Positions 1 through 35,812 of a stretch of DNA of 64,000 bases are shown piece after piece. The translations under genes and the position numbers were made by a program. The stretch is from positions 23 through 64,022 of the IMG/VR virus record IMGVR_UViG_3300019889_000014, one strand, 5' to 3'. Every line of letters begins with the position of its first letter. The first letter of the stretch is position 1. This DNA is from a virus. Its lineage: Duplodnaviria; Caudoviricetes. Under the pieces are notes generated by a model that searched no databases, was not told the origin of the DNA, and was given only the letters and a program-made list of their open reading frames with translations.

Positions 1-15
1 ACAATGGAGAGGGAA

Positions 16-738
16 ATGAGCAAACGCGAGGATCTGCTGCGGCGCATCCGGGCTCTGATGGCAAAAACCACGGAGAACGGCTGCACCGAAGCGGAAGCCG
101 CGATGGCTGCGGCCCACGTCGACCGGTTGATGGGCGAGAACGATGTCGATCTGACGGATCTGGAAGTGCGGGATCAAACCTGTATCCAGATCAAGGTTCC
201 GACCGGCACCGGCAAATGGCATCCGGTCGAACAGGTCGTTGTCGCCGTGGCGAGTTTCACTGATACGAAGGTCTGGAAGACTGAAGGCCGGCTGAACACG
301 GACATCAACTTCTTCGGCCTGGCCACGGATGTCGAGATCGCGGAGTACCTGACCTACCTGTTCCGGCGTGCCTTGGAGCGGGAAACCGCTGCTGTCGGCA
401 TGCTGGACTTCAACTGGCAGCGCATGACGAACCTGCAACGGGCGAATGCCCGCGAGAGCTTCGGCCTCGGCATGGCCAAGCGCCTGTCGGAGCGGCTGAA
501 GGAGCTGAAGTCCAAGCGGGACTGGACCACGGAACACGCGACGGGTCGGTCGCTGATCGTGGTCAAGGGCGCGGTTGTGACGGAGCAATACGCGAAGCTG
601 AACCTGAACCTGACCTACGGCGGGGGCAAGGCAATCCGCGACCCGAACGCCTTCCGGGACGGCCAGAAAGCCGGCGACCGGGTGACGATCCAGCAGGGTG
701 TCGGTGACAGCTACGTGGCGCCCAAGGAAATCGCCTGA
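16..738 (+). CDS. DUF2786-domain phage protein
   Basis: N-terminal LLRRIRALMAKT..GCTEAEA..A motif typical of DUF2786; GGAGAGGG RBS before ATG 16. Confidence 0.75.
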   Translation: MSKREDLLRRIRALMAKTTENGCTEAEAAMAAAHVDRLMGENDVDLTDLEVRDQTCIQIKVPTGTGKWHPVEQVVVAVASFTDTKVWKTEGRLNTDINFFGLATDVEIAEYLTYLFRRALERETAAVGMLDFNWQRMTNLQRANARESFGLGMAKRLSERLKELKSKRDWTTEHATGRSLIVVKGAVVTEQYAKLNLNLTYGGGKAIRDPNAFRDGQKAGDRVTIQQGVGDSYVAPKEIA

Positions 739-740
739 AT

Positions 741-762
741 GGAGGGGGCCGCGGCCCCCTCC
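741..762 (+). other. GC-rich hairpin without U-tract, upstream of hammerhead 1
   Basis: GGAGGGGGCC-GC-GGCCCCCTCC; same stem recurs at 3080-3101. Confidence 0.7.
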
Positions 763-777
763 CCTTCCCCCTCTCCC

Positions 778-829
778 CCCGCCTGATGACGGCCACGGTG
801 ACACCTGGCCGAAACCCCTGGGTCGCGGG
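778..829 (+). ncRNA. Type I hammerhead ribozyme (HH1)
   Basis: Stem I CCCGC/GCGGG, core CUGAUGA 783-789 plus an extra C, stem II GGCCA/UGGCC, GAAA 811-814, short stem III ACC/GGU, GUC site, cleavage predicted after C824. Confidence 0.8.
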
Positions 830-864
830 AAGTCGAAAAACCCGTCTGCACAAGGAGAAAAACG

Positions 865-966
865 ATGTGGGAGACATTGGCCTATGGCCTGCCGATCGTC
901 GGCGCGGTCTGGAGCCTGGCGTACTGCCTGGCCGCCAGGAAGCGCAGCCGGAGGGCGAAGCCGTGA
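865..966 (+). CDS. 33-aa membrane peptide
   Basis: AGGAG RBS; MWETLAYGLPIVGAVWSLAYCLAARKRSRRAKP; TGATG coupling to next gene. Confidence 0.55.
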   Translation: MWETLAYGLPIVGAVWSLAYCLAARKRSRRAKP

Positions 967-1382
967 TGGGCTCGACAAGAAGGCCATGGATCGTTCGCGG
1001 CGAGGCTGACGACAGCGCCGACGCGGACACCAAAGCCCTCGGCATCGAGCCGGCCGAGGAAGGGACCGAGGGTGGGGGCTGGCCCTACTTCCTTCGGGAA
1101 GACCGGGAATTCGAACCCGGCCACGGCCCCCATTGGATCGCGCACGGCATCCAGAACCTGTCCGATGCGCGGCTGCTGTGTCGGCTGGCCAACGCCGAGC
1201 CTGGCCCGGAGTTCGCCAGCTGGGCATTGGCCAAGGCGTACCTGGCCGAGCGGGACTGGCGCTGCATCAACGAAGCGGCGCACCGCTACCGCTCGGCCGA
1301 CAACAAGCGGGAAGCGCGGATCTTCCCGATCACGCTGGGCCGGGCTCTTGTGATTGTGGACCTACCGGTCCCGCACGTGTGA
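966..1382 (+). CDS. hypothetical phage protein
   Basis: ORF coupled by TGATG overlap. Confidence 0.6.
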   Translation: MGSTRRPWIVRGEADDSADADTKALGIEPAEEGTEGGGWPYFLREDREFEPGHGPHWIAHGIQNLSDARLLCRLANAEPGPEFASWALAKAYLAERDWRCINEAAHRYRSADNKREARIFPITLGRALVIVDLPVPHV

Positions 1383-1431
1383 AATCGCGTGAGGGGCGCC
1401 AGCCCGGCGCCCCTCTCTTGGGGAGGGAGCC

Positions 1432-1596
1432 ATGGTTTTCTGTGTCCTGATGTTCCTGATGACGGCTGTTCCGGTCGCCTGCCCCTCTGTCGCGGCGCAG
1501 CCGGTGCCACACCCTGGAGACCCGGTTGCGATAGCGCCGGCCTGCGCGCCTCGGCCCGGCCTGCGGCCTGGAACGCCGCGCCGGGAATGCAAATAA
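1432..1596 (+). CDS. 54-aa peptide with hydrophobic N-terminus
   Basis: GGAGGGAG RBS; MVFCVLMFLMTAVPVACPSVAAQ...; stop directly abuts HH2. Confidence 0.5.
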   Translation: MVFCVLMFLMTAVPVACPSVAAQPVPHPGDPVAIAPACAPRPGLRPGTPRRECK

Positions 1597-1670
1597 CCTC
1601 GCCTGACGAGGCCGCCTGACCAGCGGCCGAAACGGCGCCGTCCGACATCGGATGGCGTCTTCGCGAGAGG
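1597..1670 (+). ncRNA. Type I hammerhead ribozyme (HH2)
   Basis: Stem I CUCGC/GCGAG, core CUGACGA 1603-1609, stem II GGCCGC/GCGGCC, GAAA 1629-1632, 11-bp stem III extension, UUC site, cleavage predicted after C1662. Confidence 0.75.
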
Positions 1671-1725
1671 TCACGACGGCGACAACCGCCGCACACCCTC
1701 TGGCACTGCACGATGGAGAGCAAGG

Positions 1726-1926
1726 ATGAGTTGGAAACCCGAAGTGATCGCGGATGGGTCCGGCCAGTTTGTCGGCAATCAGCTCCGTTTCGCCACCAAG
1801 GAGGAAGCGGAAGCCAATGCCGAGAGCCTGTCCAAGCGCTGGGTTCTGGTCCTGGACTGGCGCGCCACGGAGAGCACCGATCCGGTGAACTACGCCTGGC
1901 GCGACGGCACGCTGGTGTCCCTGTGA
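1726..1926 (+). CDS. small hypothetical phage protein
   Basis: GGAGAG RBS, GC3-rich codon usage. Confidence 0.7.
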   Translation: MSWKPEVIADGSGQFVGNQLRFATKEEAEANAESLSKRWVLVLDWRATESTDPVNYAWRDGTLVSL

Positions 1927-2081
1927 GCCGCCGGACGCGGGTGTCGGCCAGGCGCTACTCGGAGGAACGGGTGCGCATGGCTCTGCGGGAGATGCACGAG
2001 ACCGGCTTCGGGCGCATGTCGCGCTCGGAGCAGGCCGTCATCGTCTCGTATGAGCGGGGGCTGAGCCCATGCCCTACGTGA
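1923..2081 (+). CDS. small hypothetical protein
   Basis: GTGA overlap with upstream stop. Confidence 0.4.
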   Translation: MSRRTRVSARRYSEERVRMALREMHETGFGRMSRSEQAVIVSYERGLSPCPT

Positions 2082-2272
2082 CGCGGCACCATCGGCTCAA
2101 GCGCCCGCAGCTCGAGGCTATCAAAAAGCTCTGGCTGCGAAGCCCTGACGGCGAGACCAGCTACCGGATGTTCCGGAGCCGGTTCTACGACAGCCGGATG
2201 ATGGGCTGCGTCATGGGCCGCTGGTGCGGCATGGACATCGGCATCGAGGCCGATGGCCACACCCACACCTGA
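2069..2272 (+). CDS. small hypothetical phage protein
   Basis: Packed ORF, C-terminal WCGMDIGIEADGHTH. Confidence 0.6.
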   Translation: MPYVTRHHRLKRPQLEAIKKLWLRSPDGETSYRMFRSRFYDSRMMGCVMGRWCGMDIGIEADGHTHT

Positions 2273-2342
2273 CCGACGACGGGCCGGTTCCCGACAGGGG
2301 CCGGCCCGTTCTGTCTGCGATCACAGAACGAGGGGAAATGAG

Positions 2343-3077
2343 ATGACGACGAGAGCAACGTACATCGTCGGCGACATGCTGTTCTACGCGCACCATGACG
2401 GCTATCCGACCGGCGCGGCCGAGCGGTTCGCCCGGATGATCGACGCCTGGTACGTGCCGACCGACAGCCACCTGATGGAGGCCGCGGAGCACCCTGCCGG
2501 TGGCCTGGCCTTCGCGTTCATCCGGGGCAACCTGGATGTGCAGCTGGCCAACAGCCTGAAGGACCACGGCGACGCCGAGTTCGCGTATGTCGTGGGCCAG
2601 CGGGAAAGCGGCAAGATCGAGGTCACGGTCCGGAGCCGGGAGAGCAAGGAACCGGATCGAGGTGAACTGTCCGAGTGGATGGCGCACCAGCAGCGGAACC
2701 TTCGGAATGACCTGGCCACGTACTGGACAGACCACCCGGAGGATCGGCCGAACGACGTGAACGACGGCCGCTATACGATCATGCAGCAAGCGGCGCTCGA
2801 CGCAGCGGAAGCGATCCCGCTGATCGTCCGGATCGAGCGGCGCGAGCATGCCGGAACCGAGCCGCGGATCGTCTATGCGACGATCGACCAAGCGGCCCGG
2901 ATCAAGCACCGGCACGCGGTCGTGGCGAGCCGCATGGGCGAGTTGGCCAGCCCTGATGGCAAGAAGGCCGAGCAGCGGCGCATGCGCGAGGTGTTCCTGG
3001 CGATGCAGGCCGCGATCACCCTGGCCGAGGCTGTCGGTCTGACGGCACCGAAGCTGGAGACCGCCGAAGCGAACTGA
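2343..3077 (+). CDS. hypothetical phage protein (YxHxDGYP motif)
   Basis: GAGGGG RBS; N-terminal MTTRA...FYAHHDGYP. Confidence 0.7.
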   Translation: MTTRATYIVGDMLFYAHHDGYPTGAAERFARMIDAWYVPTDSHLMEAAEHPAGGLAFAFIRGNLDVQLANSLKDHGDAEFAYVVGQRESGKIEVTVRSRESKEPDRGELSEWMAHQQRNLRNDLATYWTDHPEDRPNDVNDGRYTIMQQAALDAAEAIPLIVRIERREHAGTEPRIVYATIDQAARIKHRHAVVASRMGELASPDGKKAEQRRMREVFLAMQAAITLAEAVGLTAPKLETAEAN

Positions 3078-3079
3078 AG

Positions 3080-3101
3080 GGAGGGGGCGAAAGCCCCCTC
3101 C
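3080..3101 (+). other. GC-rich GNRA hairpin without U-tract, upstream of hammerhead 3
   Basis: GGAGGGGGC-GAAA-GCCCCCTCC. Confidence 0.7.
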
Positions 3102-3105
3102 TCCT

Positions 3106-3163
3106 ATCCGCCTGACGAGTGCCTGGTCGGAAGCCAGGACGAAACCGGAAACGGTCGCGGGAT
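3106..3163 (+). ncRNA. Type I hammerhead ribozyme (HH3)
   Basis: Stem I UCCGC/GCGGG, core CUGACGA 3112-3118, stem II GU(G)CCUGG/CCAGGAC, GAAA 3141-3144, stem III ACCG-GAAA-CGGU, GUC site, cleavage predicted after C3156. Confidence 0.88.
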
Positions 3164-3190
3164 CTTCCGCAATGCACAATGGAGAGCACA

Positions 3191-3478
3191 ATGGATTACC
3201 GAATCGAGATCCACCCGGACGGGCGAAAGGTCGAGAAATTCGGCGAAAACGCCAAGGCGCCGACGCTGGAGGAAGCGCAGGCGTTCGTCGGGGGCTGGAT
3301 CGAGATCCAGACCATCCGGCTCGAAGGCCAGTCCGCCCAGATGGTCTTGAACGAGGAGGGCAAGCTGATGGACCTCCCGGTCAACCACCTGGCGACAGCC
3401 CTGTGGCTGGCCCAGGGGCACGCCGACGCGATCGTTGGCCCGGTCCTGCTGCTGACCGGCAAGGCGAGGCTGAAGTGA
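3191..3478 (+). CDS. DUF3846-like protein
   Basis: LEEAQAFVGGWIE...NEEGKLMDLPVN..AT...IVGPVLL pattern. Confidence 0.75.
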   Translation: MDYRIEIHPDGRKVEKFGENAKAPTLEEAQAFVGGWIEIQTIRLEGQSAQMVLNEEGKLMDLPVNHLATALWLAQGHADAIVGPVLLLTGKARLK

Positions 3479-3984
3479 TGGCCCGGCCGAAAGGTCCACC
3501 GGACCTGAAAGCCCTCGCCGACCTTGGCCTGAGCATGGCCGAGCAGACCATGCGGACCAAGGGCAGGCTGAAGCCGAGCCAGATCTATGCGGTCGACGGC
3601 GAAGCGAACCTCTACGTCATCGATTTCGAGATCGAGCAGTCGGCGATCCTGAAGGACATCTCGGCACTGAAACTGCGGGCGTTCTTCAAGGAAAAAAAGG
3701 TGGAGCGGTACGTCTTCGTCACCGAGGTCTGGTATCGCGTCGTCAGGACGAGAACACCGGAGGAAAGGCTCGCCGCCGCCAACAGTGTGCCGCCGTCCCA
3801 GGCGCCGGATCGGATGGAAGCGATCATCGCTGTCGGTCAGGACCGGCAGGGAACGGTCGAGTTGTGCCGGCCGATCCTGCGCACCGAGGGCGGGAAGTAC
3901 CGGGGCCTCGGCGAGCCCGAGACCATGGGGGACGTGTCCGTCGGCCGGTTCGCCAACATGCTGCCACGGGACGCCCTGCAATGA
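3478..3984 (+). CDS. hypothetical protein
   Basis: TGATG coupling, codon usage. Confidence 0.65.
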   Translation: MARPKGPPDLKALADLGLSMAEQTMRTKGRLKPSQIYAVDGEANLYVIDFEIEQSAILKDISALKLRAFFKEKKVERYVFVTEVWYRVVRTRTPEERLAAANSVPPSQAPDRMEAIIAVGQDRQGTVELCRPILRTEGGKYRGLGEPETMGDVSVGRFANMLPRDALQ

Positions 3985-4202
3985 CCGACACCGATCTTGT
4001 CGGGATCATCAACACGAAGCTCAACGAGCTGCTGTCGGCCCTGATCCAGGTCCGCGGGGGCCAGGAGTTCGTGAAGTTCGCGGAGCAGTTGCGCGAGCGG
4101 TCCGCCAAGACGGCTGTGTTTGGCCTGAAGGGCTATCAGAACAGCGTGATCATGGACGCCGTCGCGGACGCAATTGATCCGCCCAACGGAAAGGAAAGCT
4201 GA
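3981..4202 (+). CDS. hypothetical protein
   Basis: ATGA overlap. Confidence 0.55.
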   Translation: MTDTDLVGIINTKLNELLSALIQVRGGQEFVKFAEQLRERSAKTAVFGLKGYQNSVIMDAVADAIDPPNGKES

Positions 4203-4203
4203 C

Positions 4204-4398
4204 ATGAAGAAAATCACCCTCCGAATGGAGGTCGACGACAAGGTCGAGCGGGCCGAGGTCGACAGCCTCTACGACGCCGGCAGCCAGGTGGCGTCGTTCA
4301 TTCGGCACCTGGACCTGGAGAAGCACACCGACGCCGAGATCGGGATCACGGTGACGATCGAAGACAAGCCCGGCACTGGGTCGAGCGGGGAGTTCTAG
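4204..4398 (+). CDS. hypothetical protein
   Basis: AGGA RBS, packed ORF. Confidence 0.55.
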   Translation: MKKITLRMEVDDKVERAEVDSLYDAGSQVASFIRHLDLEKHTDAEIGITVTIEDKPGTGSSGEF

Positions 4399-4499
4399 CC
4401 GAGCGCGCAAGGCCGCCCTGCCGGGAGGAGCAGGACGGCCCTCGCGACCGACTTCTTTGCAGATTTTGCAAACAACGGCCGCACAAGGAGAACTGCACA

Positions 4500-4886
4500 A
4501 TGGCAAGAAGGTCAGAACGAACCGACCTCCTGAACCGGATTCAAACGCCGGTTCTGGTGGAGGACCGCACGGTCTGCAACAGCTCCGGGGTCAGCATTTT
4601 CATGGCTGCCACATCACGCGAAGCTGAAGACCTGGCGTTCCTGATCAACACGGGTGCCGAGACGGTACGGAACTCCGCGCGGCCGGTGCGAATGCAGGCA
4701 GCATTCGTGCCGCGCGACGGCGATGCCGCCCACCGCAGCGGCCACCGGCTGGAGGACAACCCGTTCCCGGTCGACACCCGCGACCACGATCTATGGGACA
4801 GCGACTGGGAGTTCCGGCACGACCATTGCGGGCATAGCGCAGCAGATGCCCCCGGCGGGCGTCTCGACCCGGCGAGGAAGCGATGA
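4500..4886 (+). CDS. hypothetical protein
   Basis: AAGGAG RBS. Confidence 0.6.
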   Translation: MARRSERTDLLNRIQTPVLVEDRTVCNSSGVSIFMAATSREAEDLAFLINTGAETVRNSARPVRMQAAFVPRDGDAAHRSGHRLEDNPFPVDTRDHDLWDSDWEFRHDHCGHSAADAPGGRLDPARKR

Positions 4887-5230
4887 CCGCCCCCTGGCGA
4901 TACCAGCACGTCGGCGCCTACCTGGCCGCCGTGCGCCGGGCGCACGCCGCGCTGGCAGCGGGCAAGCGCATCCGGATGTGGTGGGGCGACTGGGAAGGGG
5001 TCGACCGCGCCGGGTTCCGCAAGGAATTCGTCGCGGCCCTGCACCGGCGCATCACCCGGAAAGTCGAGCCGGACCCGAGGGGCCGGAAAGACAGCCAGGA
5101 ATACCGGACCGGCATGCTGCGGGACAAATACCGCCTGATCGACAGCGCCCGTCGCATCCGGATCTACGAGTTCGAGACCGACGACTGCCGGCGCCGCTTC
5201 GGCGACCGGCTGGCAACCCGTGACGAATAG
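4883..5230 (+). CDS. hypothetical protein
   Basis: ATGA overlap. Confidence 0.6.
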   Translation: MTAPWRYQHVGAYLAAVRRAHAALAAGKRIRMWWGDWEGVDRAGFRKEFVAALHRRITRKVEPDPRGRKDSQEYRTGMLRDKYRLIDSARRIRIYEFETDDCRRRFGDRLATRDE

Positions 5231-5239
5231 GAGGCAACC

Positions 5240-5593
5240 ATGAGCGAAAACGAGGCCGCCATGGACCAGCTGGTTACCAAGCTGGTCCATGAACTGACGG
5301 CGACCATGCACCGCTGGGGTGACGAAGCCGAGGCCGCCGGCATGAACCCTGACGACCTCGGCCCGCTGAACATGGCCGGGCTGATCGAGATGGCCGGGCG
5401 CTTCATCGCCTATGTCGTGGCTCCGACGAGCTACGAGGACGTGAAGGTGAAGTTCGCGGAACGGCTCGACGAAGCCATCGCCCGGCACGCGCCGGACGCC
5501 GCCGCAGCCCTCCGGACGCAGCAGACCATCGAGGGCATGAAAGCCAGATTGGCCGCCAGAATCCGGTCAACGCGGGATGGTGGCACAGAGTGA
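5240..5593 (+). CDS. hypothetical protein
   Basis: GGAGG RBS. Confidence 0.65.
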   Translation: MSENEAAMDQLVTKLVHELTATMHRWGDEAEAAGMNPDDLGPLNMAGLIEMAGRFIAYVVAPTSYEDVKVKFAERLDEAIARHAPDAAAALRTQQTIEGMKARLAARIRSTRDGGTE

Positions 5594-5721
5594 CAGAAAT
5601 CGGCCCCCAAGCCACAACAGCCTGGGGGCCAGTCTAACTGCACAATGGTGGCGCGAGCGCCACGCCGCAATGTCGGCTGCGCATCCGCCGAACACAAGCA
5701 CCAAAAAAGAGGAGAAGGGAA

Positions 5722-6624
5722 ATGACTGTCCTGAATTCGGGCATCTCGTGGTGTACCGGTACACTGAATCTGACGGTCGGCTGCGACAAGGTCTCACCCG
5801 GCTGCGACTTCTGCTATGCGGAAGCCCTGGTCCACAAGCTGTCCAAGACCTTCGGCCCGGAGCCGTTCTCGACGCTGCGGTTCCACCCGCAGCGGCTGCG
5901 CGACCTCCGGAAGTTCAAGCCGTTCTTGGGGCCTGACGGGCTGCTGTGCCCGGCGCTGGTCTTCGTCAACTCGCTGTCGGATTTCTTCCATCCCGGCATC
6001 CCGGACGACTTCATCCACACGGCTCTGGACACGTTCGAGGAACACCCGACAACGATCCTCCAGATCCTGACCAAGCGGCCCGTCAGGGCTCGCGAGGTGA
6101 TCGTGCAGCGCTACAAGGGCCGAGGCGTGCCGGACAACCTGTGGTTCGGAACCTCCGTCGAAGACGATCGCGTGGCCGGGCGCCTGAACATCATGCGCAA
6201 GGCCAAGGACCGGGTCGGGGGCTTCACCCTGTTCGTGTCGATCGAGCCGCTGATCGGCCCGCTCGACCGCGTCGACCTGACCGACGTGGACTGGGTGCTG
6301 ACCGGGGGCGAGTCCGGCAACCACTGCCGGGACATGGACTTCGGCTGGCTGGTGATGGCGCACATGAAAACGCGCCTGGCTGGGGGAGCGCTGCACTTCA
6401 AGCAGTTCGGCCACCCGCGGAACAACCCGCTGGTCCAGGAAGCAATGCGCCATGGCCGCATGTCGGCCACGGCCGCGTTCGACTGGGTGTGCAAACGGGG
6501 CCTCGAGCTGGCTCCCGAGGAGAAGGGTGGGGCGACCTATAACGGCGCCATCATCCGCGAGAAGCCGGCAGCGTATGACCGGGTCAAGGCGAAGCTGAAC
6601 CTGCAGCCGGCGCGGCTGCTGTGA
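5722..6624 (+). CDS. DUF5131 / phage Gp37Gp68 family three-Cys protein
   Basis: GCDKVSPGCDFCYAE, FVNSLSDFFH, QILTKRP, SIEPLIGP, WVLTGGESG, FKQFG motifs. Confidence 0.9.
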   Translation: MTVLNSGISWCTGTLNLTVGCDKVSPGCDFCYAEALVHKLSKTFGPEPFSTLRFHPQRLRDLRKFKPFLGPDGLLCPALVFVNSLSDFFHPGIPDDFIHTALDTFEEHPTTILQILTKRPVRAREVIVQRYKGRGVPDNLWFGTSVEDDRVAGRLNIMRKAKDRVGGFTLFVSIEPLIGPLDRVDLTDVDWVLTGGESGNHCRDMDFGWLVMAHMKTRLAGGALHFKQFGHPRNNPLVQEAMRHGRMSATAAFDWVCKRGLELAPEEKGGATYNGAIIREKPAAYDRVKAKLNLQPARLL

Positions 6625-6637
6625 AAGGAGGACGAGC

Positions 6638-6916
6638 ATGACGATTGACGACGCGATCCGCGAGCACGGCGCCCTCAAGGTCTACCTCGCCTGCGACGGC
6701 GGGCCTGGCTGCCCCGAGCGCATGGTAGCGCTCGGCCTGCCCGAGCCGCAGACCATGGACGATGTGTTCCAGGCGATGAAAGCCGCCTATGCCGCCATGA
6801 CGCCGCAGGAGCAGGCCGAGGAGGACCGGCACGACGACGTTCGCGGCCGATACCTCGCCTCGGCCAGCAAAGCCGGCGTGGGGGCGCCGCGCATGCCACG
6901 AGGGAGAGACCGATGA
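6638..6916 (+). CDS. hypothetical protein
   Basis: AGGAGG RBS. Confidence 0.6.
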   Translation: MTIDDAIREHGALKVYLACDGGPGCPERMVALGLPEPQTMDDVFQAMKAAYAAMTPQEQAEEDRHDDVRGRYLASASKAGVGAPRMPRGRDR

Positions 6917-7293
6917 GGACCGTACCCAATCCCGAAGGCTTGCCGGCCATCGTCGGCCGGCGCATCCGGGAACTGCGAAAGCAGCGGCGCATGAGCCTGG
7001 AGGAGCTTGCGCAAGCCGTCGGCCGCGGCAAGGCCGCCGTCTCGCGCTACGAGCGCGCCGAGATGGCGATGACGCTGGAGATCCTGGCCTCGCTGGCGTC
7101 TGCCCTGAAGACCACGCCGGGCGCCCTGGTGGCCGGCGCGGAGCCGGAGTGCGAGTGCTTCGGCGAGAGCGGCATCTATGCCAGCACGCATGTCCGCGAC
7201 GGCCGCCTGCGCTGCGACCTGTGCGGGCGACCCGTGCGGACAGGCGCCGTCGATGCCATGACCGTTATCAACCGAGGAGGAGTGATCGGATGA
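6913..7293 (+). CDS. XRE-family HTH regulator with C-terminal Cys cluster
   Basis: GRRIRELRKQRRMSLEELAQAVG...VSRYER; CEC...CDLCG. Confidence 0.8.
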   Translation: MRTVPNPEGLPAIVGRRIRELRKQRRMSLEELAQAVGRGKAAVSRYERAEMAMTLEILASLASALKTTPGALVAGAEPECECFGESGIYASTHVRDGRLRCDLCGRPVRTGAVDAMTVINRGGVIG

Positions 7294-7703
7294 GATACAT
7301 TGTCGTGTTCGACAAACGACACGGCTGGGCCGTCGCCCACTGGTGGTCGCAATCGCGGCGACCGGACGCGACGCTCCAGGAGGACGTGACCCCGACGTTC
7401 CTGGTCACCGGCGAATGGTCGGACAGCCATCTCACCGCCGAGAAGGAGGCCGACCGGCTGAACGGCGCAAAGGAGGCTGATCGAGTGACGAACCCGACCT
7501 TTGACGACCTGGAAAACGGGGATCTGTTCCACTGGGTAAGCGCTCGCGGGCCAGGCCGATTCCAGATGGAGAAGATCGACGCGACGCACTATCGGCCGGT
7601 CACGGGGCCGAACGCCCTCGATATGTGTCCTGCCGGATCGATGGGCGACAGCCAGGTGATGCGAGCACGACCAGCTGCGCCCGAGCCGAAGGAGGCGAAG
7701 TGA
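7290..7703 (+). CDS. hypothetical protein
   Basis: GGAGGAG RBS, ATGA overlap. Confidence 0.6.
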   Translation: MRYIVVFDKRHGWAVAHWWSQSRRPDATLQEDVTPTFLVTGEWSDSHLTAEKEADRLNGAKEADRVTNPTFDDLENGDLFHWVSARGPGRFQMEKIDATHYRPVTGPNALDMCPAGSMGDSQVMRARPAAPEPKEAK

Positions 7704-7864
7704 GGAAGCCCACGATCTATGAAGTTCTGGTCACGAAACTCGGCCGCGTGCCGACGCATCGTGAACAGTGCGACGAGGTCGCGCGCATCCTGCGTGAGGC
7801 TCACATTGAGGCAGACCAGGAGCGCGCGGCAAACGGCACCATGCCGCATCAGCGGAAGAGGTAA
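7700..7864 (+). CDS. small hypothetical protein
   Basis: GGAGG RBS, GTGA overlap. Confidence 0.55.
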   Translation: MRKPTIYEVLVTKLGRVPTHREQCDEVARILREAHIEADQERAANGTMPHQRKR

Positions 7865-7871
7865 TCGAGCC

Positions 7872-8072
7872 ATGACAGAGAAGCGCCGTTGGTGGGTCGG
7901 TCTGCACCGGACCCTGCTGCAGACCGCCGAAGTGACCGTCGAGGCCGACACCAAGGAGGAAGCCGAAAAGCTGGCCTTGCAGCAAGCGGCTTCGGGGATA
8001 AGCGCCACTGAATGGATGGAGCCCAGGGTGAAAGAGACCACCGTGAATTACGCCGAGGAAGCGACCGACTGA
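7872..8072 (+). CDS. small hypothetical protein
   Basis: GAGG RBS; VEADTKEEAEKLA motif. Confidence 0.6.
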   Translation: MTEKRRWWVGLHRTLLQTAEVTVEADTKEEAEKLALQQAASGISATEWMEPRVKETTVNYAEEATD

Positions 8073-8396
8073 TCACCGCGGCTGGTCCTGAAACACGGTG
8101 ATGATCCGCCGGAGGTCTTCGTCGTAGACTACGTACCGCATCGAGCCGTTGATGAAGACGGAGCAGGTTAGCCGGCTCCGTCCAAGGTGTTCGATGATCC
8201 CGGCCGTCGACTCTGGTCCAGAAGGTCGACGGCCGGTCTTCTCCTTTCGCCAGCGACGCAGCGCGAGCCGGATCGAAGCCTCGGCCTCGGCACGGGTTGC
8301 CTCATCCAGGTCGATTCCGTGGCGCTGCTGCGCCCGGTCGCTGGCATGCTGTTCCGCCCGATCGCGGGACCGGCGGTCCCGAGGTGCGTCGCTCAG
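8073..8396 (-). CDS. hypothetical protein, start uncertain
   Basis: HASDRAQQRHGIDL...YVVYD...IITV looks protein-like; no ATG/GTG near the upstream stop. Confidence 0.4.
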   Translation of the reverse strand: MSDAPRDRRSRDRAEQHASDRAQQRHGIDLDEATRAEAEASIRLALRRWRKEKTGRRPSGPESTAGIIEHLGRSRLTCSVFINGSMRYVVYDEDLRRIITVFQDQPR

Positions 8397-9043
8397 GAAA
8401 ATTCGCGCTGGAGGACGAGGCCGATGTACCTCATCCCCGCCCCGCTCTTGCCGACGGCCTGCCATCGCCGCTCCACCGTTGCATGCATCCGCCGGGTCAG
8501 GCCGGCGATGCACCGGTTGATGATCTCGTCCGAGCTGCGGGCAACGCCGGTCGCATGCGGGTGCATGCCGGCCAGGTGCGCCATCACCGTTGGCAGCCCG
8601 CGCAGCCGCATGTCGAGGCCGGACCCCTCGGTCAGCACCAGGCCGAGCCGTTCGCCCGGCAGCAAGGGCCGGCGCGCCGCCAGGATCATGCATTGCTCCC
8701 AGGGGGAGCCGTAGGCGTCGAAGTCGAAAATGGTGAACGGCGCCAGGTCGATCGAGCGCAGGACGCGCAGGTTGTCGGCGACGAAGGCAAGCCGGTCGTC
8801 CCGGTAGAACTGGAGATCGCAGCCGACATAGGAGGCGGCGCCCGCCCAGACGGCGTCATGCATCTCCCCTGCCCCGGCGAAGGCGTCGAAGACGTGGGCC
8901 TTGGCCGAGCCGACCAGGTCGAGCACGTTGGCCCGGATCGAGACCTTGGCGGCGCGCGCTGCTGGTGCGCTGTCGGTCTTCCGATCGCGGCGGCCCCGCT
9001 CGCCGGCCTCATTCGACCAGGTCCGTCGCTTGGCCGCCGTCAC
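8393..9043 (-). CDS. SAM-dependent methyltransferase-like protein (TcmP-like)
   Basis: VFDAFAGAG motif I and FDFDAYGSP motif. Confidence 0.6.
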   Translation of the reverse strand: MTAAKRRTWSNEAGERGRRDRKTDSAPAARAAKVSIRANVLDLVGSAKAHVFDAFAGAGEMHDAVWAGAASYVGCDLQFYRDDRLAFVADNLRVLRSIDLAPFTIFDFDAYGSPWEQCMILAARRPLLPGERLGLVLTEGSGLDMRLRGLPTVMAHLAGMHPHATGVARSSDEIINRCIAGLTRRMHATVERRWQAVGKSGAGMRYIGLVLQREFS

Positions 9044-9609
9044 AGCCCGGCCACCGTGCCGAGTTCGACGGTGATGCCCGGCACCTCGCGCATGACGGTC
9101 TTCAGCCGCTGCAGCGCCTCGGCCTGCGACGCCAGGGGGCCGCGCACCGAAACCCAGAACCGGTCCTGAACCTCGGAGGTCTCAACCTCCACGACCGGGA
9201 TTTCGTCGGCAACGGCGTCGTCGAGGAGCGCCTGGGCCTCCTTGTCGTTGAAGCCGACCGCGAGCCAGTCCATTTCGTTGATCTCGCGCAGCAGATCGGC
9301 GACCCGGTCGCCGTCATGGGTCGACAGGTCGGACAGCCGGTTGTCGGCCAGCATGTAGGCATCGGCCGTCTTCTGGTCGGTGTCCCACAGCACCACGTCG
9401 ATATCGGAGAAGCCGGCGCGCTGGGCCGCCTCCAGGATGCCATGGCCGGCGACGACCATGTGATTGGCCGCGCGCACGAGGATGGGTTTGACCTGGTTGA
9501 AGCGCAGCAGCGCTGCGGTCAGGCGCTGCATCTGCGCCTCGTCGTGCCGGCGCGGGTTGCGTGGGTTGGCCAGCAGAGCCGTGAGCGGGAGCCGCGTGGA
9601 CTTGAGCAT
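9040..9609 (-). CDS. ParB/Srx N-terminal domain protein
   Basis: NPRNPRRH...PILV...VVAGHG.LEAA...LADNR. Confidence 0.85.
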   Translation of the reverse strand: MLKSTRLPLTALLANPRNPRRHDEAQMQRLTAALLRFNQVKPILVRAANHMVVAGHGILEAAQRAGFSDIDVVLWDTDQKTADAYMLADNRLSDLSTHDGDRVADLLREINEMDWLAVGFNDKEAQALLDDAVADEIPVVEVETSEVQDRFWVSVRGPLASQAEALQRLKTVMREVPGITVELGTVAGL

Positions 9610-10241
9610 CACGCCTCGCGGGTGTAGGCGCGCCGCAGGGCGCGATCGAGGGCGACCAGGCCGTGTTGGACGTTGAGCAGCATCGTCAGCTCTTGGCCGG
9701 TCCAGCGGGTCGAGAGCAGAAAGCCGGGAAAGACGCCGAACACGGCGATGTCCCGGATCAGGTTCGGCACGTCCAGCATCTTGAACACCCGCTGCCGGCG
9801 CTCCTGCGTGCCCTGGGCGGCCTCGCCGTAGCCGGAGCGGGTTCCGTCCAGCCGGCAGACCGTCGGGCCTGTGGGGACGCGCAGCACCGCCGCGTAGAGC
9901 CAGGCGTAGTGGCACCCGGCATTGTGCTGGTCGAGGTCGATCAGGCGCCGGCCGAACAGGACGCCGAGGGGATAGGTCGACAGCACCGGGTCGGCGAAGC
10001 CCATCATCACGGCGCGCTTGGCCAGCAGCTGGGGCGAAGGCGACGCCGTCACCGTGGGCTGCACCCGATGGGCGAAGCGCCGCAAGGTCTCATAGGGGAT
10101 CTTGAACCGGCGCTGCACCGAGCGCAGCGAAGCCCCCTCGGCCAGGGCCGCCAGGATCTTGTCGCGTTCGGGATGTCGGTCGAGGCCAGGCGACGGGCCG
10201 GGGCGGGTCGTGGGTTCGGCGAGGGCGAGCGCTGTCGACAT
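9609..10241 (-). CDS. hypothetical protein with N-terminal HTH
   Basis: ILAALAEGASLRSVQRRFKIPYETLRR. Confidence 0.55.
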   Translation of the reverse strand: MSTALALAEPTTRPGPSPGLDRHPERDKILAALAEGASLRSVQRRFKIPYETLRRFAHRVQPTVTASPSPQLLAKRAVMMGFADPVLSTYPLGVLFGRRLIDLDQHNAGCHYAWLYAAVLRVPTGPTVCRLDGTRSGYGEAAQGTQERRQRVFKMLDVPNLIRDIAVFGVFPGFLLSTRWTGQELTMLLNVQHGLVALDRALRRAYTREA

Positions 10242-10278
10242 GGCGTGAATGTACCCAGATTGGAGCCAGTCGGCGATG

Positions 10279-10620
10279 GAGTTACAAAAGCCGGGACGGC
10301 GTAACCCCGGTTGTCACCCCCTCCGTAACCCCGGAGCGGCACCTAATAAATAAATAAAATCAATATATTATATTATATATATATAGATAGGGTTACAGGG
10401 TTACAACGATATGCAGGTGTTTATATATATAGGTCTCGTTATCTCTCACACGGTCACTATATATATACCTCCTCGGAAGCTGTAACCCTGTAACCCCTCC
10501 CCCGGAAATTCCATCTAAGGCATTGATTCGTCTAGCAAAAAAGGCGGTTACAGAAGGGGTGACTTTGGGGTTACAAAACCGGGCCGAAGGCCCTGAAACG
10601 GCCCAAAACAGGGGTCACAG
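10279..10620. other. putative replication origin (AT-rich core with GGGTTAC iterons)
   Basis: About ten GGGTTAC/GTAACCC-like repeats in both orientations around TATATA tracts, immediately downstream of the helicase gene. Confidence 0.75.
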
Positions 10621-12432
10621 CAGGTCGAGCGCGGCGTCCAAATCGAGGTGCGTGCCGCGCACCTGGAGCTTGCCCGAGGCGTCATGCGGCTTCGGAAAGC
10701 GCAGCCCGTTCTTCGACGGTTCGGCGAAGGGCAGCCGCTTCAGCTGGGGCGCCCAGTTGTCCGCCCACGGCGTGTCGCGGAAGATCCGCTTCAAGGCGCT
10801 GTGGTCGTTCGCCACCGTGATCACGTGGCTGTCAGCCAGTCCGGGCTCGGCCCGGATGCCGTTCCGGCGCAGTGTCAGGTCGGCGGACTCGGGCGCGATG
10901 ACCTCGGTTTGCGTCTCCCGCGTGACCCGGCCGTTCACGTCCTCGATCTCGGCCCGGTCGATCCTGGTGTCACGGGTGATGCCGGCGGCGATCATCGCCA
11001 GTTCGGCGATGCTGCGGGTGACGTGGCGAAGGTCGCTGGTCTCGACCGTGATCAGCGCCTGCAGCAGGTAGCGCAGGCAACTCTCCTCGTCCCGGTTGTT
11101 CAGCGCCTCCTCGATCTCGGACCATTCCTGCTGCTCGACGAACTGCTTGGCGGTTGCCGGCGTGATGGCCTCGTCGCTGTTCAGCGAATAGGCGCCGGCC
11201 AGGAGGGTGCCGATCTGGTCGCCGAGGCGGCGCTGGCCGAGGTGGACCGTGATGGCGTCGGCGAAAATCGCGGCGTTGGCGCGGATCACCGGGATCATCT
11301 TGACGGATCGGGCCAGGAAGGCGTCGCAGAACGCCGGGGTCAGCAGCGCGTCCATGTCGACGCTGAGCGCGTCCCATTGGCTGCTCGAGCTGCGCCGCTC
11401 GTCCTCGGTGAGGTTCGGTGCCGGCGTCAGCGTGAGGAAGCTGATCCGGCCGCGATCGGCCGCCGCCTTGATGCCGGGATTGATGCTGACCAGGGCGAAG
11501 CAGCTGCGGAGCGTGAACATGCGGGCGATGCCGCCGGTCGAACCCTTCAGCAGCACGCCGGAATCGGACGATGAGGACCGCATCATCTCCAGGATCAATT
11601 GGATGCGCTCCTGGGCGCCCTTGTCGTTGCTCTCGGCCTCGTCGAACAGGATCGGCAAGGCATCGTTGCGCATCTTCTGGCGCAGGCCAGGTTCGGTCGT
11701 CGCGCCCTGGACGTGGACGGCGCTCTGCCCCATCAGCGGCAGCATGAAGCGCATGGCGACCGTCGTCTTGCCGGTGCCGGAACCGCCGGTAACCCAGACG
11801 TGTGGCCGCCAGGCCAGCGCGCCGCAAATCGGGGCAATGGCGCAGAAGCCGGCCAGGAGATAGGCCGAGACCGGCTTCGCCCAGCGCAGGCGCCGCGCCA
11901 GCTTGATGACCTCGCGCGCCTGGGTGACGGGCATGAAGTTGACCGAGGGCGCCTTGATCGCGGCGCCGGCCTCGTAGAGGTAGTAGCTCTCCGCCAGATC
12001 GGCGAGCGGATGGATCTCGCCGTCGATCACGCATTGGTTGCCGAGATGCAGGATCGTCCGGCCGTGGTCGAACCAGGCGCCCCGCCCCCGCACCCGGTCG
12101 GGGTTGTAGACGCCCTGGCCGCGGCACTGGGCCATGAACTGGCTTGCCGCCGCGTCCCAATCGATCTTGGCGGTGCCCTGAGCGGCGTGGCCGAACTGAC
12201 CATGCCAGAAGGACATCGGTGCCATCGACAGCAGGTTCAGCTTGCTGTGGTTCGACGCGGTCAGCTCGTGAACCTGCTTGGTCGACTCCGAATAGTAGAA
12301 GAACACGGCATGGTCATAGCCCAGCGGCCGGACCCGGCGCAGGGAGTTGATGTCGATGACCTTGGCGGAATTCGCGTCCTGCGCTGCGGCCTGGGTTGAT
12401 GCGTCGGGCCCTTTGCGCGGCGTGCGTGCCAT
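10615..12432 (-). CDS. P-loop replicative helicase (primase-helicase type)
   Basis: Walker A GGSGTGKT, Walker B ILFDEAE. Confidence 0.75.
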   Translation of the reverse strand: MARTPRKGPDASTQAAAQDANSAKVIDINSLRRVRPLGYDHAVFFYYSESTKQVHELTASNHSKLNLLSMAPMSFWHGQFGHAAQGTAKIDWDAAASQFMAQCRGQGVYNPDRVRGRGAWFDHGRTILHLGNQCVIDGEIHPLADLAESYYLYEAGAAIKAPSVNFMPVTQAREVIKLARRLRWAKPVSAYLLAGFCAIAPICGALAWRPHVWVTGGSGTGKTTVAMRFMLPLMGQSAVHVQGATTEPGLRQKMRNDALPILFDEAESNDKGAQERIQLILEMMRSSSSDSGVLLKGSTGGIARMFTLRSCFALVSINPGIKAAADRGRISFLTLTPAPNLTEDERRSSSSQWDALSVDMDALLTPAFCDAFLARSVKMIPVIRANAAIFADAITVHLGQRRLGDQIGTLLAGAYSLNSDEAITPATAKQFVEQQEWSEIEEALNNRDEESCLRYLLQALITVETSDLRHVTRSIAELAMIAAGITRDTRIDRAEIEDVNGRVTRETQTEVIAPESADLTLRRNGIRAEPGLADSHVITVANDHSALKRIFRDTPWADNWAPQLKRLPFAEPSKNGLRFPKPHDASGKLQVRGTHLDLDAALDLL

Positions 12433-35143: not shown

Positions 35144-35220
35144 AGCAGGATGGCGCAGCCCGGTAGCGCGTCAGGCTCATAACCTGAAGGTCAGCGGTTC
35201 GAATCCGCTTCCTGCCTCCA
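35144..35220 (+). tRNA. tRNA-fMet(CAT)
   Basis: Cloverleaf, mismatched 1:72 pair, alphaproteobacterial-type TCAGG-CTCATAA-CCTGA arm, encoded CCA. Confidence 0.85.
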
Positions 35221-35302
35221 GCCCGGTTGGCGGAATGGTAGACGCAGGCCCCTCAAGACGGCCCGCTTTGGCGTGGGAGTTCAAGTCTCTCACCGGGCAC
35301 CA
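35221..35302 (+). tRNA. tRNA-Leu(CAA)
   Basis: GCCCGGT/ACCGGGC acceptor, loop CTCAAGA, variable arm, ACCA; C.C mismatch at base of anticodon stem. Confidence 0.85.
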
Positions 35303-35442
35303 GTTTTCGAGATGGGGTGCGCCGCAAGGCGCCGAGGAACCGGAGATAGCCGCGCCACCATGGCACTGACGCGGCGAAGGCAGCCGGGCCGAAGTGGGCA
35401 CAGCCCAGCCCCGAGATGCTGCGGCACCGATCTCTCGGCGTC

Positions 35443-35514
35443 CGCGCCGGGACGGGATTTGAACCCAGCGTACTCGGCATAAAGAGCCTAGGCGAAACCG
35501 CTTGCCTACCCGGC
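35443..35514 (-). pseudogene. degenerate tRNA-like element on opposite strand
   Basis: GCCGGG/CCCGGC acceptor-like stem, GGC/GCC D stem, GGGTTCAAATCCC T arm; weak anticodon arm, no CCA. Confidence 0.4.
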
Positions 35515-35625
35515 AACGGAGTGCTTTTCACACCCGCAGCATCTGGCATTGTAGCATCTGCGGTGCTATACGGCCGCTATGACCTACGCTCTGCGATACC
35601 GATCGAGTCGGTCCACCTTCTGATT

Positions 35626-35714
35626 GGAAGGGTGGCAGAGCGGTAATGCGTCAGCTTGCTAAGCTGTAGCCGGGGCCAGTCCCTGCGGGAGTTCGATCCT
35701 CCCCCCTTCCGCCA
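35626..35714 (+). tRNA. tRNA-Ser(GCT)
   Basis: GGAAGGG/CCCTTCC acceptor, TTGCTAA loop, long variable arm, GCCA. Confidence 0.9.
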
Positions 35715-35716
35715 AT

Positions 35717-35803: not shown

Positions 35804-35812
35804 TCTCCCGTT

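What the first reader, a model, noticed from the sequence alone, without database searches (positions are those of the whole stretch)
739..3190. Serial hammerhead ribozymes partition the early-gene operon into cassettes
Seen: three intergenic sense-strand elements (778-829, 1597-1670, 3106-3163) each carry the full hammerhead core CUGANGA...GAAA...UH. Their helices differ in sequence but keep pairing. Each follows a stop codon, and the predicted cut lies 40, 63 and 34 nt before the next ATG, just ahead of a shared TGCAC..GGAG RBS motif. Known: hammerheads have been reported in phage intergenic DNA, and cleavage leaves 5-prime OH and 2,3-cyclic phosphate ends. Inference: the phage self-processes one polycistronic early transcript into uniform mRNA modules, a natural RiboJ-like insulator array. 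The window begins with the tail of the same RBS motif (ACAATGGAGA), so more units may lie upstream.
Basis: partly seen in the sequence, partly recalled or inferred. Interest (0 to 1): 0.9.

Follow-up and report, generated by a model that had tools for sequence, protein, structure and literature searches.

The report
Three hammerhead ribozymes between phage genes
Three well-formed self-cutting hammerhead RNAs sit between genes of an uncultured soil phage and probably chop one long message into shorter ones, an arrangement described for prophages in 2011, so this is a small, ordinary example.

Summary
Three plus-strand intergenic elements (778-829, 1598-1667, 3106-3163) have the type I hammerhead core and three helices. 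Predicted cuts lie after C824, C1662 and C3156, which is 40, 63 and 34 nt before the next ATG.

- **Chance:** a helix-aware descriptor finds exactly these 3 loci in the 64-kb record. None of 300 dinucleotide shuffles gave 3.
- **Conservation:** a 75-79% identical metagenome relative, L117, keeps all three at the same junctions, with intact cores and changed but still pairing helices.
- **Class:** they belong to a widespread phage class with a loop II/3'-tail pseudoknot and strong covariation. Rfam's cut-offs miss this class.
- **Weakest copy:** E1 has an extra C after A9, a change that crippled a viroid hammerhead.
- **Not supported:** L117 has no unit upstream of gene A. The 'RBS motif' also occurs in leaders without ribozymes.

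Cleavage and its effect on expression were not tested. No RNA data exist. Clustered hammerheads flanking prophage genes were published in 2011 (PMC3088659). This scan has already noted far larger arrays on other DNA. Verdict: real, a new member of a known kind, low interest.

The parts
741..762 (+). GC-rich hairpin after the stop codon of gene A (9 bp, loop CGCG), followed by a C/U-rich spacer at 763-777
   Evidence: Fold. The L117 orthologue has the same stem and a UUCG loop. It is not a general feature of the ribozyme class.
778..829 (+). E1, a type I hammerhead. Stem I 778-782/825-829; core CUGAUGA 783-789; extra C790; stem II 791-795/806-810; G12-A14 811-813; stem III 814-816/821-823; C17 = 824. 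Predicted cut 824|825.
   Evidence: R1 scores it 46.6 bits. Orthologue at L117 1101-1162, 51.7 bits.
832..835 (+). E1 tail GUCG, which can pair with UGAC 799-802 of loop II (a weak 4-bp pseudoknot including one G.U)
   Evidence: The L117 orthologue has a 5-bp UGACG/CGUCA pairing.
1598..1667 (+). E2, a type I hammerhead. Stem I 1598-1602/1663-1667; core CUGACGA 1603-1609; stem II 1610-1615/1623-1628; GAAA 1629-1632; long stem III 1632-1644/1649-1661 with a C1633.U1660 mismatch; C17 = 1662. Predicted cut 1662|1663.
   Evidence: z = -3.26. R1 scores it 38.7 bits. The orthologue at L117 1492-1569 has an unrelated stem III sequence that still pairs.
1669..1673 (+). E2 tail GGUCA, complementary to UGACC 1617-1621 of loop II (5-bp pseudoknot)
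   Evidence: Kept in L117. It covaries with the E1' pair UGACG/CGUCA.
1677..1691 (+). Leader hairpin CGGCG-ACAAC-CGCCG in the 3' cleavage product of E2
   Evidence: fold of 1597-1725. L117 has the same stem with loop AAAAU after both E1' and E2'.
3079..3102 (+). GC-rich hairpin after the stop codon of gene G (10 bp, GAAA loop)
   Evidence: Conserved in L117.
3106..3163 (+). E3, a type I hammerhead. Stem I 3106-3111/3157-3163 with bulged G3161; core CUGACGA 3112-3118; stem II 3119-3126/3134-3140 with bulged G3121; GAAA 3141-3144; stem III 3144-3147/3152-3155 with a GAAA tetraloop; C17 = 3156. Predicted cut 3156|3157.
   Evidence: Rfam RF00163 at 23.5 bits. R1 at 39.8 bits. 55 of 58 nt identical in L117, against 77% and 66% for the flanking genes.
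3164..3169 (+). E3 tail CUUCCG, complementary to CGGAAG 3128-3133 of loop II (6-bp pseudoknot). It overlaps CCGC 3167-3170, which can instead pair with GCGG 3157-3160 after cleavage.
   Evidence: Identical in L117.
847..867 (+). Leader motif UGCACAAGGAGA and the ATG of gene B (865)
1707..1728 (+). Leader motif UGCACGAUGGAGAG and the ATG of gene D (1726)
3173..3193 (+). Leader motif UGCACAAUGGAGAG, repeated as GCACAAUGGAU, containing the ATG of gene H (3191)

Best explanation
The three elements are genuine type I hammerhead self-cleaving ribozymes, with stem I open and stems II and III closed by loops. They belong to a widespread phage subclass in which loop II pairs with the few nucleotides just 3' of stem I (a pseudoknot).

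They are transcribed as part of the plus-strand gene block. Each would fold as soon as its 3' strand of stem I leaves the polymerase and cut itself after C824, C1662 and C3156. That splits the message into four parts: gene A; genes B and C, perhaps with the 54-aa ORF; genes D to G; and gene H onward.

Each upstream piece would end in the compact ribozyme body with a 2',3'-cyclic phosphate. For A and G a strong GC hairpin precedes that body. Each downstream piece would start with a 5'-hydroxyl and a short structured leader 34-63 nt before the start codon.

**Shown here, by computation only:** the motifs, their helices and pseudoknots, their conservation with compensatory changes in a relative, and their class membership.

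**Inferred:** that they cut in vivo; that E1 cuts at all, given its extra C; and that cutting sets separate stability or translation for each block.
For: **Specificity.**
- The descriptor finds exactly 3 loci in the record. None of 300 shuffles gave 3.
- All three are intergenic and on the coding strand.
- MFE folds of the 3 elements and their 3 L117 orthologues all give the three-way junction.

**Database and model scores.**
- E3 matches Rfam Hammerhead_1 end to end at 23.5 bits.
- Model R1, built from 56 hammerheads of other viral contigs, scores E1 at 46.6, E3 at 39.8 and E2 at 38.7 bits. The next hit in the window scores 17.5 bits and lacks the core.

**Relative L117 (75-79% nucleotide identity).** It has orthologues at the same three junctions, scoring 51.7, 38.2 and 37.0 bits.
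- E1 stem II changes from A-U to G-C.
- E2 stem III is replaced by an unrelated sequence that still pairs.
- The E2 cut-site base changes from C to A, which is allowed (H17).
- E3 is 55 of 58 nt identical, while its flanking genes are 77% and 66% identical.

**Pseudoknot.** The partners covary: UGACC/GGUCA in E2, UGACG/CGUCA in E1', and CGGAAG/CUUCCG in E3.

**Class alignment.** In 100 matches, 94.2% of cells are paired, 12 of 14 pairs change on both sides, and 0 of 500 shuffles reach this.

**Literature.** Clustered prophage hammerheads cleaved in vitro in about 2-kb polycistronic constructs. The A. tumefaciens triple also cleaved in E. coli (PMC3088659, passages).
Against: **No experimental support.** No RNA data for this sequence could be found.

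**Rfam.** No element reaches Rfam's gathering score. E1 and E2 are not reported by Rfam even at E up to 10.

**R1 is partly circular.** Its seed sequences were fetched with a pattern taken from the window's own elements.

**Flaws in individual elements.**
- E1 has an extra C between A9 and G10.1. In the CChMVd(+) hammerhead, a C at that place had 'major detrimental effects' (PMC3705267, passage). The C can also pair with G12 and lock the core.
- E2 has a C.U mismatch one pair from the core.

**Fold energies.** E1 and E3 are no more stable than shuffles (z = -0.71 and -0.08).

**More distant relatives lack the ribozymes.** The tested set was L001 and L002 (gene A, 39% identity) and L118-L127 (gene G, 34-67% identity in the best segment). 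Rfam and the descriptor found none in L001 or L002. The descriptor found none in L118-L125. R1 found none in L001, L002 or L118-L125, and none in L126 or L127. The ribozymes are therefore not tied to these genes.

**Transcription unit.** That the block is one transcript is assumed. No promoter-like site was found in 1-12000, and terminator-like hairpins are no more frequent than chance: 10 against 7.2 expected.
Confidence: 0.75

Rival explanations
1. The hammerheads cut, but as regulated or deliberately slow elements rather than constitutive insulators. Cutting efficiency would differ between sites and set different decay rates or translation for each block. Efficiency would depend on E1's extra C, E2's mismatch, and competition between stem I plus the pseudoknot and a local hairpin in the leader.
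For: - E1 and E2 deviate next to the core.
- The first nucleotides of each 3' product can pair with a downstream segment instead of stem I. Examples are GCGG 3157-3160 with CCGC 3167-3170, and GCGGG 825-829 with CCCGU 841-845.
- In the class, 71% of 115 ribozymes have such a helix of at least 4 bp within 20 nt, against 51% in an upstream control. None of 100 shuffled sets reached the observed mean.
- Perreault et al. raise regulated cleavage for slower phage variants (PMC3088659, discussion passage).
Against: The enrichment of the alternative hairpin is modest, and it disappears at spans of 30 and 70 nt. No ligand or protein partner is indicated. E3 is a textbook fast-looking hammerhead with a 6-bp pseudoknot.
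Confidence: 0.15
2. The elements are selfish or decaying repeats, copies of one hammerhead-plus-leader module that spread between gene junctions. They have no role in phage gene expression, and some no longer cut.
For: - The modules are paralogous: window 1600-1718 aligns to L117 1105-1206 at 71%.
- E1 has a probably damaging insertion.
- More distant relatives of the flanking genes lack the elements.
- The genes between E1 and E2 differ between the two phages.
Against: All three cores are intact in both phages despite 21-25% overall divergence. Helix changes are compensatory. E3 is far better conserved than its flanking genes (94.8% against 77% and 66%). The class as a whole shows strong covariation.
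Confidence: 0.07
3. The matches are chance occurrences of a short consensus in GC-rich DNA.
For: The bare core pattern occurs 6 times against 4.04 expected. With two irregularities allowed per helix, the descriptor picks up 4 more loose hits on the minus strand.
Against: None of 300 shuffles gave 3 helix-supported loci. The three share strand, intergenic position and orthologues in L117. R1 lists none of the 4 loose minus-strand hits at E up to 10.
Confidence: 0.01

Closest known systems
Clustered hammerhead ribozymes flanking genes or short gene blocks in prophages (Perreault et al. 2011, PMC3088659; passages read, supplements not seen)
   Same: Several hammerheads lie within a few kb, co-oriented with phage genes and flanking single genes or short blocks of varying identity. 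A pseudoknot links the stem I and stem II regions. The proposed role is processing of long phage transcripts. Tandem sets from A. tumefaciens, Azorhizobium and C. scindens cleaved in vitro.
   Different: This is a different phage, from a soil metagenome, with different flanking genes (DUF2786/DUF7168, DUF3846 and unknowns). Two of the three copies are preceded by a strong GC hairpin. E1 carries an extra C after A9. Nothing has been tested here. I could not see their supplementary alignments, so I cannot say whether this exact subclass is in them.
Rfam RF00163 Hammerhead_1 (type I)
   Same: Same core, same topology with stem I open. E3 aligns over all 45 model positions.
   Different: E3 scores 23.5 bits against the gathering score of 34. 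E1 and E2 are not reported. Across 15 ribozyme-rich loci (14 viral contigs plus the metagenome relative L117) there were 0 matches at the gathering score. Stems II and III are longer than in the model, and the subclass has a pseudoknot and often an extra pyrimidine after A9.
CChMVd (+) hammerhead with an extra nucleotide between A9 and G10.1 (De la Pena and Flores 2001, as summarised in PMC3705267; passage read)
   Same: E1 has one extra nucleotide at the same place. 30 of 56 class members in alignment A4 have an extra U there.
   Different: In CChMVd the natural extra base is A. U raised the rate 3-4-fold, and C or G were strongly detrimental. E1 has C, and its L117 orthologue has no extra base.
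RiboJ, a synthetic ribozyme insulator
   Same: A hammerhead placed before an RBS gives the downstream mRNA a defined 5' end. A hairpin follows the cut site in E2 and in E1' of L117.
   Different: As I recall it, RiboJ is an engineered satellite-RNA hammerhead used behind promoters. These elements are natural type I ribozymes between genes, with leaders that are not uniform.
HHphage of haloviruses HF1/HF2 (PMC3088659, discussion passage)
   Same: A hammerhead lies just upstream of the first gene of an early polycistronic phage transcript. The mapped 5' end lies within 3 nt of the cut site.
   Different: It is a single copy with a variant core, in an archaeal virus, 13 nt from the start codon.

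Membership tests
Hammerhead ribozyme, type I | Core C3 U4 G5 A6 N7 G8 A9 contiguous with stem II | tested here: met
   CUGAUGA at 783, CUGACGA at 1603 and CUGACGA at 3112. E2 and E3 run straight into G10.1. E1 has an extra C790 before stem II, so it meets this only with a one-nucleotide insertion.
Hammerhead ribozyme, type I | G12 A13 A14, the A15.1-U16.1 pair, and H17 (not G) at the cut site | tested here: met
   GAAA at 811, 1629 and 3141. U823 C824, U1661 C1662, U3155 C3156.
Hammerhead ribozyme, type I | Three helices around the core, with stem I open and stems II and III closed by loops | tested here: met
   The descriptor gives pair counts (stem I, II, III) of 5, 5, 3 for E1; 6, 7, 12 for E2; and 6, 8, 4 for E3. 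MFE folds agree.
Hammerhead ribozyme, type I | No mispair directly next to the core (criterion of Perreault et al. 2011, methods passage) | tested here: inconclusive
   Met for E2 and E3. E1 has either an inserted C or a C10.1/C11.1 mispair. The authors tested hits of this kind when they occurred in prophage context.
Hammerhead ribozyme, type I | Tertiary contact between the stem I and stem II regions | tested here: met
   Loop II pairs with the 3' tail: 5 bp in E2, 6 bp in E3, and 4 bp with a G.U in E1. In the class the mean is 3.92 bp against 3.57 for permuted partners, and 0 of 200 permutations reach the observed value.
Hammerhead ribozyme, type I | Helices kept by compensatory change in relatives | tested here: met
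   L117 orthologues. Class alignment A5: 12 of 14 pairs change on both sides, and 0 of 500 shuffles reach this. A5 was fitted to the model's structure, which favours pairing.
Hammerhead ribozyme, type I | Site-specific Mg-dependent self-cleavage giving 2',3'-cyclic phosphate and 5'-OH ends | not testable with these tools
   No RNA run was available. An in vitro assay is needed.
Rfam RF00163 Hammerhead_1 | Score at or above the gathering cut-off of 34 bits | tested here: not met
   E3 scores 23.5 bits. E1 and E2 give no match at E up to 10. The same holds for other members of this phage class, so I read this as a limit of the model.
Clustered prophage hammerheads (Perreault et al. 2011) | Several hammerheads close together, flanking genes or short gene blocks in phage DNA, co-oriented with them | tested here: met
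   Three elements lie within 2.4 kb on the coding strand of a viral record, with blocks of 1, 2-3 and 4 genes between cuts.

The most novel reading that the evidence does not exclude
The ribozyme-bounded RNA between the E1 and E2 cuts (825-1662, genes B and C) could be joined end to end into a coding circular RNA.

Its 5' end (GCGGG..GUCG) can dock into the E2 body almost as well as E2's own substrate strand. Stem I would form with one G.U pair, and the pseudoknot would be the 4-bp UGAC/GUCG. The same holds in L117. So a hammerhead-catalysed or RtcB-type ligation is sterically conceivable.

A milder version is that the released 5' ends refold into +1 hairpins. These would make cleavage irreversible and protect the new 5' end.
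Probability: 0.04. Interest if true: 0.7.

Novelty: new member of a known kind. Interest (0 to 1): 0.2.

Why it matters
If the ribozymes cut, this phage sets the ends of its mRNAs with RNA catalysts and not with host RNases. That is one more natural case for studying how 5'-OH and cyclic-phosphate ends affect bacterial mRNA stability and translation.

The practical point is annotation. This whole phage subclass has a long stem II or III, a loop II/tail pseudoknot, and often an extra pyrimidine after A9. It falls below Rfam's cut-offs, so such ribozymes go unannotated in viral metagenomes.

The biology itself was described in 2011. Much larger arrays are already on record in this scan, so this instance adds little.

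Tried and rejected
**Searches and tests that added nothing or led nowhere.**
- Rfam at gathering score on the window gave only tRNAs. In E-value mode, no other ribozyme family appeared at E up to 1.
- blastn of 1-8000 against GenBank phages gave no match.
- Gene G against viral contigs gave no relative. An exact 34-nt stretch of E3 against viral contigs gave 0 hits.
- Relatives of gene A (L001, L002) and distant relatives of gene G (L118-L127) carry no hammerhead.
- Expression: no RNA holder was listed. The three listed runs are soil-metagenome DNA, and one may be the source sample.

**Ideas tested and set aside.**
- The upstream GC hairpin as a general part of the module: rejected. 16% of 105 class members have a stem of at least 7 bp within 50 nt upstream, against 13% and 16% in the two control windows.
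- A +1 hairpin in the 3' product as a class feature: only a modest signal at a span of 20 nt, and none at 30 or 70 nt.
- The C/U-rich spacer as an anti-Shine-Dalgarno sequence that cleavage would release: seen only in the MFE fold of the E1 spacer. Not pursued.
- A fourth ribozyme upstream of the record's start: the homologous region of L117 has none.
- The MAFFT alignment A1 of the three elements alone was structurally inconsistent and was not used for a model.

**Limits on what I could see.**
- The supplements of PMC3088659 (figures S1-S6 and the alignments) were not seen. They may already contain this subclass.

**Rows dropped.**
- Of the 58 unique descriptor hits with short stems, 2 were left out of A4 as probable false hits: L039:1505-1567 and L093:2958-3021.
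- Only 96 of the 113 pattern loci were given, because of the limit of 100 sources.


Full report
**Setting.** The window is all but the first 22 nt of a 64,022-nt linear viral record with 66% G+C. CheckV estimates it at 84% complete. The only runs that hold the sequence are soil-metagenome DNA. Plus-strand genes fill roughly 1-8070. My gene calls are:
- A: 16-738 (DUF2786 + DUF7168)
- B: 865-966 (33 aa, hydrophobic)
- C: 966-1382
- a doubtful 54-aa ORF: 1432-1596
- D: 1726-1926
- E: 1977-2081
- F: 2069-2272
- G: 2343-3077
- H: 3191-3478 (DUF3846)
- I: 3478-3984

These rest. Nothing shows that these genes are 'early'.

**The observation.** E1, E2 and E3 each have CUGANGA, then a hairpin, then GAAA, then a second hairpin ending in U-C. 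A 5-7 nt strand follows that pairs with the nucleotides just before CUGA. That is a type I hammerhead, with stem I open.

The predicted cuts lie after C824, C1662 and C3156, which is 40, 63 and 34 nt before the ATGs at 865, 1726 and 3191. E2 has two possible registers. I prefer the cut after C1662, because it gives GUC-like U-C|GCG as in E1 and E3 and a better stem I.

**Is it more than chance?**
- The bare core pattern is not: 6 matches against 4.04 expected.
- I wrote a descriptor requiring at least 4 pairs in stem I, 4 in stem II and 3 in stem III, with one irregularity allowed per helix. It finds exactly these three loci on both strands of the record.
- In 300 dinucleotide-preserving shuffles, 261 gave 0 loci, 38 gave 1, 1 gave 2 and none gave 3.
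- With two irregularities allowed, four more loose hits appear on the minus strand. The covariance model described below lists none of them at E up to 10.
- All three elements and their three orthologues fold by minimum free energy into the three-way junction with the core unpaired.
- Their energies are not exceptional for this G+C content, except E2 (z = -0.71, -3.26 and -0.08 for E1, E2 and E3).

**Databases.** Rfam at its gathering scores reports only three tRNAs. In E-value mode, E3 matches Hammerhead_1 (RF00163) over all 45 positions at 23.5 bits, below the cut-off of 34. E1 and E2 are not reported.

I read this as a weakness of the model for this kind of phage hammerhead. Fifteen loci rich in such elements, including the relative L117, gave 0 matches at gathering score.

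**A close relative.** Homologues of gene G led to L117, a 5,807-nt metagenome contig that is 75-79% identical over 1-834 and 1595-3984. It has hammerheads at the same three junctions.
- **E1':** it lacks the extra C. Its stem II reads GGCCGC/GCGGCC where the window has GGCCA/UGGCC, an A-U to G-C change. It has a 5-bp stem III.
- **E2':** it keeps the core, with N7 changed from C to U and the cut-site base from C to A, both allowed. Its stem III sequence is unrelated to the window's and still forms 7 or more pairs.
- **E3':** 55 of 58 nt are identical, while the flanking genes G and H are 77.1% and 65.8% identical.

Proteins A, B, D, E, F, G, H and I are conserved. C and the 54-aa ORF are replaced by an unrelated 63-aa Cys-rich protein, whose stop codon is the UGA of the E2' CUGA box. 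Homology breaks just after E1 and resumes exactly at E2.

**A widespread class.** Of the 115 loci scanned (these 113 plus L001 and L002), 87 hold at least one descriptor-positive hammerhead, and L001 and L002 hold none. Up to 7 lie on one strand of a single locus (L075).

I aligned 56 unique short-stemmed examples (A4) and built model R1.
- With filters off, R1 gives E1 46.6 bits, E3 39.8 and E2 38.7. The next hit scores 17.5 bits and lacks the core.
- The L117 orthologues score 51.7, 38.2 and 37.0 bits.
- These scores are partly circular, because the seeds were found with a pattern from the window itself.
- Over 100 sources, R1 found 100 matches at E up to 1e-4. Among the 69 sources with a match, 54 have 1, 7 have 2, 5 have 3, and one each has 4, 6 and 7.
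- On that alignment 94.2% of cells pair and 12 of 14 pairs change on both sides. None of 500 shuffles reaches this, and sliding the partner by one column drops pairing to 35-42%. The alignment was fitted to the structure, which favours it.

**Tertiary contact.** Loop II is complementary to the nucleotides just 3' of stem I. The pairs are UGACC/GGUCA in E2 and E2', UGACG/CGUCA in E1', CGGAAG/CUUCCG in E3 and E3', and only UGAC/GUCG in E1. The change from E2 to E1' is compensatory.

In the class, the mean longest pairing is 3.92 against 3.57 for permuted partners, and 0 of 200 permutations reach the observed value. Perreault et al. describe such pseudoknots in about 40% of hammerheads and show that they are needed for fast cleavage (PMC3088659, passages).

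**Weak points of single elements.**
- **E1.** It has C790 between A9 and the first stem II pair. In A4, 30 of 56 sequences have an extra U there, and none has C. In the CChMVd(+) hammerhead, an extra U raised the rate 3-4-fold, while C or G were strongly detrimental (PMC3705267, passage). The C can also pair with G12, as the MFE fold shows. E1 may therefore cut poorly.
- **E2.** It has a C.U mismatch at the second pair of stem III. Its orthologue has U-A there.

**Surroundings.**
- Strong GC hairpins follow the stops of genes A (741-762) and G (3079-3102) and are kept in L117. Such hairpins are not a class feature.
- The leaders after the cuts differ. E1 and E3 can fold their first nucleotides onto CCCGU or CCGC a few nucleotides downstream. 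E2 has an inner hairpin at 1677-1691.
- A +1 hairpin is modestly enriched in the class at short range only.
- The motif (C)UGCACRAUGGAG is shared by the leaders of A, D and H. B has a one-base-shorter form.
- The same motif also precedes gene K (4481-4502) and occurs at 5638-5650, where there is no ribozyme. It is a translation-start context of this gene block and is not part of the ribozyme module.
- Upstream of the gene A homologue, L117 has a hairpin and a leader but no hammerhead. The guess of further units upstream is not supported there.

**Mechanism.** The most likely course is co-transcriptional self-cleavage at the three sites. It would give RNAs for A, for B-C, for D-G and for H onward.
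- The upstream pieces would end in a compact structure with a 2',3'-cyclic phosphate.
- The downstream pieces would begin with a 5'-OH.
- Hammerhead chemistry gives these ends (established knowledge; also stated in PMC8782182, abstract).
- The idea that such ends slow 3' exonucleases and 5'-monophosphate-dependent RNases is my inference from general knowledge of bacterial mRNA decay. It was not tested here.

**What is known.** Perreault et al. [quoted passage not shown] They propose processing of long phage transcripts. They show cleavage for three tandem sets in vitro and for the A. tumefaciens triple in E. coli (PMC3088659, passages).

Type II hammerheads near phage-like genes were shown to cut in vivo in Desulfovibrio (PMC8782182, abstract and passages).

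This scan has already noted phage hammerhead arrays in at least 111 other genomes, some with 10-33 copies. Those are unchecked AI notes, and I use them only to judge how common the arrangement is.

Another first-stage note on this same stretch proposes circular RNAs. I checked only that the E1 product's 5' end could dock into E2, with one G.U pair and a 4-bp pseudoknot. I rate that reading unlikely.

**Verdict.** These are real type I hammerheads, conserved and belonging to a known class in a known arrangement. This instance is small (three copies), and one copy is possibly impaired. It is a new member of a known kind, of low interest. The useful by-product is that Rfam's cut-offs miss the subclass.

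Noticed in passing
window 835-1594 versus L117 1161-1490: The genes between the first two ribozymes differ between the two phages. Gene C and a 54-aa ORF in the window correspond to an unrelated 63-aa Cys-rich protein in L117. Nucleotide homology stops just after E1 and resumes exactly at E2, so the ribozyme modules coincide with a mosaic junction.
   Followed up: partly
L117 1494-1502: In the relative, the upstream gene runs through stem I of the second ribozyme. It uses the UGA of the CUGA core box as its stop codon.
   Followed up: partly
L004-L116 (IMG/VR loci), e.g. L075 5676-10574, L045 203-3670, L101 687-3337: The same type I hammerhead subclass occurs in many viral contigs, with up to 7 copies on one strand of a locus. 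Rfam at gathering score reports none in the 14 such loci tested.
   Followed up: partly
alignment A4, column 15: 30 of 56 phage hammerheads have an extra U between A9 and stem II. In a viroid hammerhead, the same insertion raised the cleavage rate.
   Followed up: partly
window 4481-4502 and 5638-5650: The leader motif (C)UGCACAAUGG recurs before gene K and in the gap before the DUF5131-like gene (5722-6624), with no ribozyme nearby. At 3174-3197 it forms a 12-nt tandem repeat (GCACAATGGAGA / GCACAATGGATT).
   Followed up: partly
window 4405-4470: A GC hairpin followed by a U-rich stretch lies between genes J and K. It is a possible intrinsic terminator inside the plus-strand block, which would split the supposed single operon.
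   Followed up: no
window 35144-35898: A tRNA cluster: three tRNAs above Rfam's cut-off, plus two sub-threshold tRNA-Sec-like matches at 35717-35799 and 35812-35898.
   Followed up: no
L126, L127: The nearest genomic relatives of gene G (46-51% identity over the N-terminal part) lie in Rhodobacteraceae genomes (Aliiroseovarius, Sulfitobacter). This hints at an alphaproteobacterial host range for this gene family. No hammerhead lies near them.
   Followed up: no
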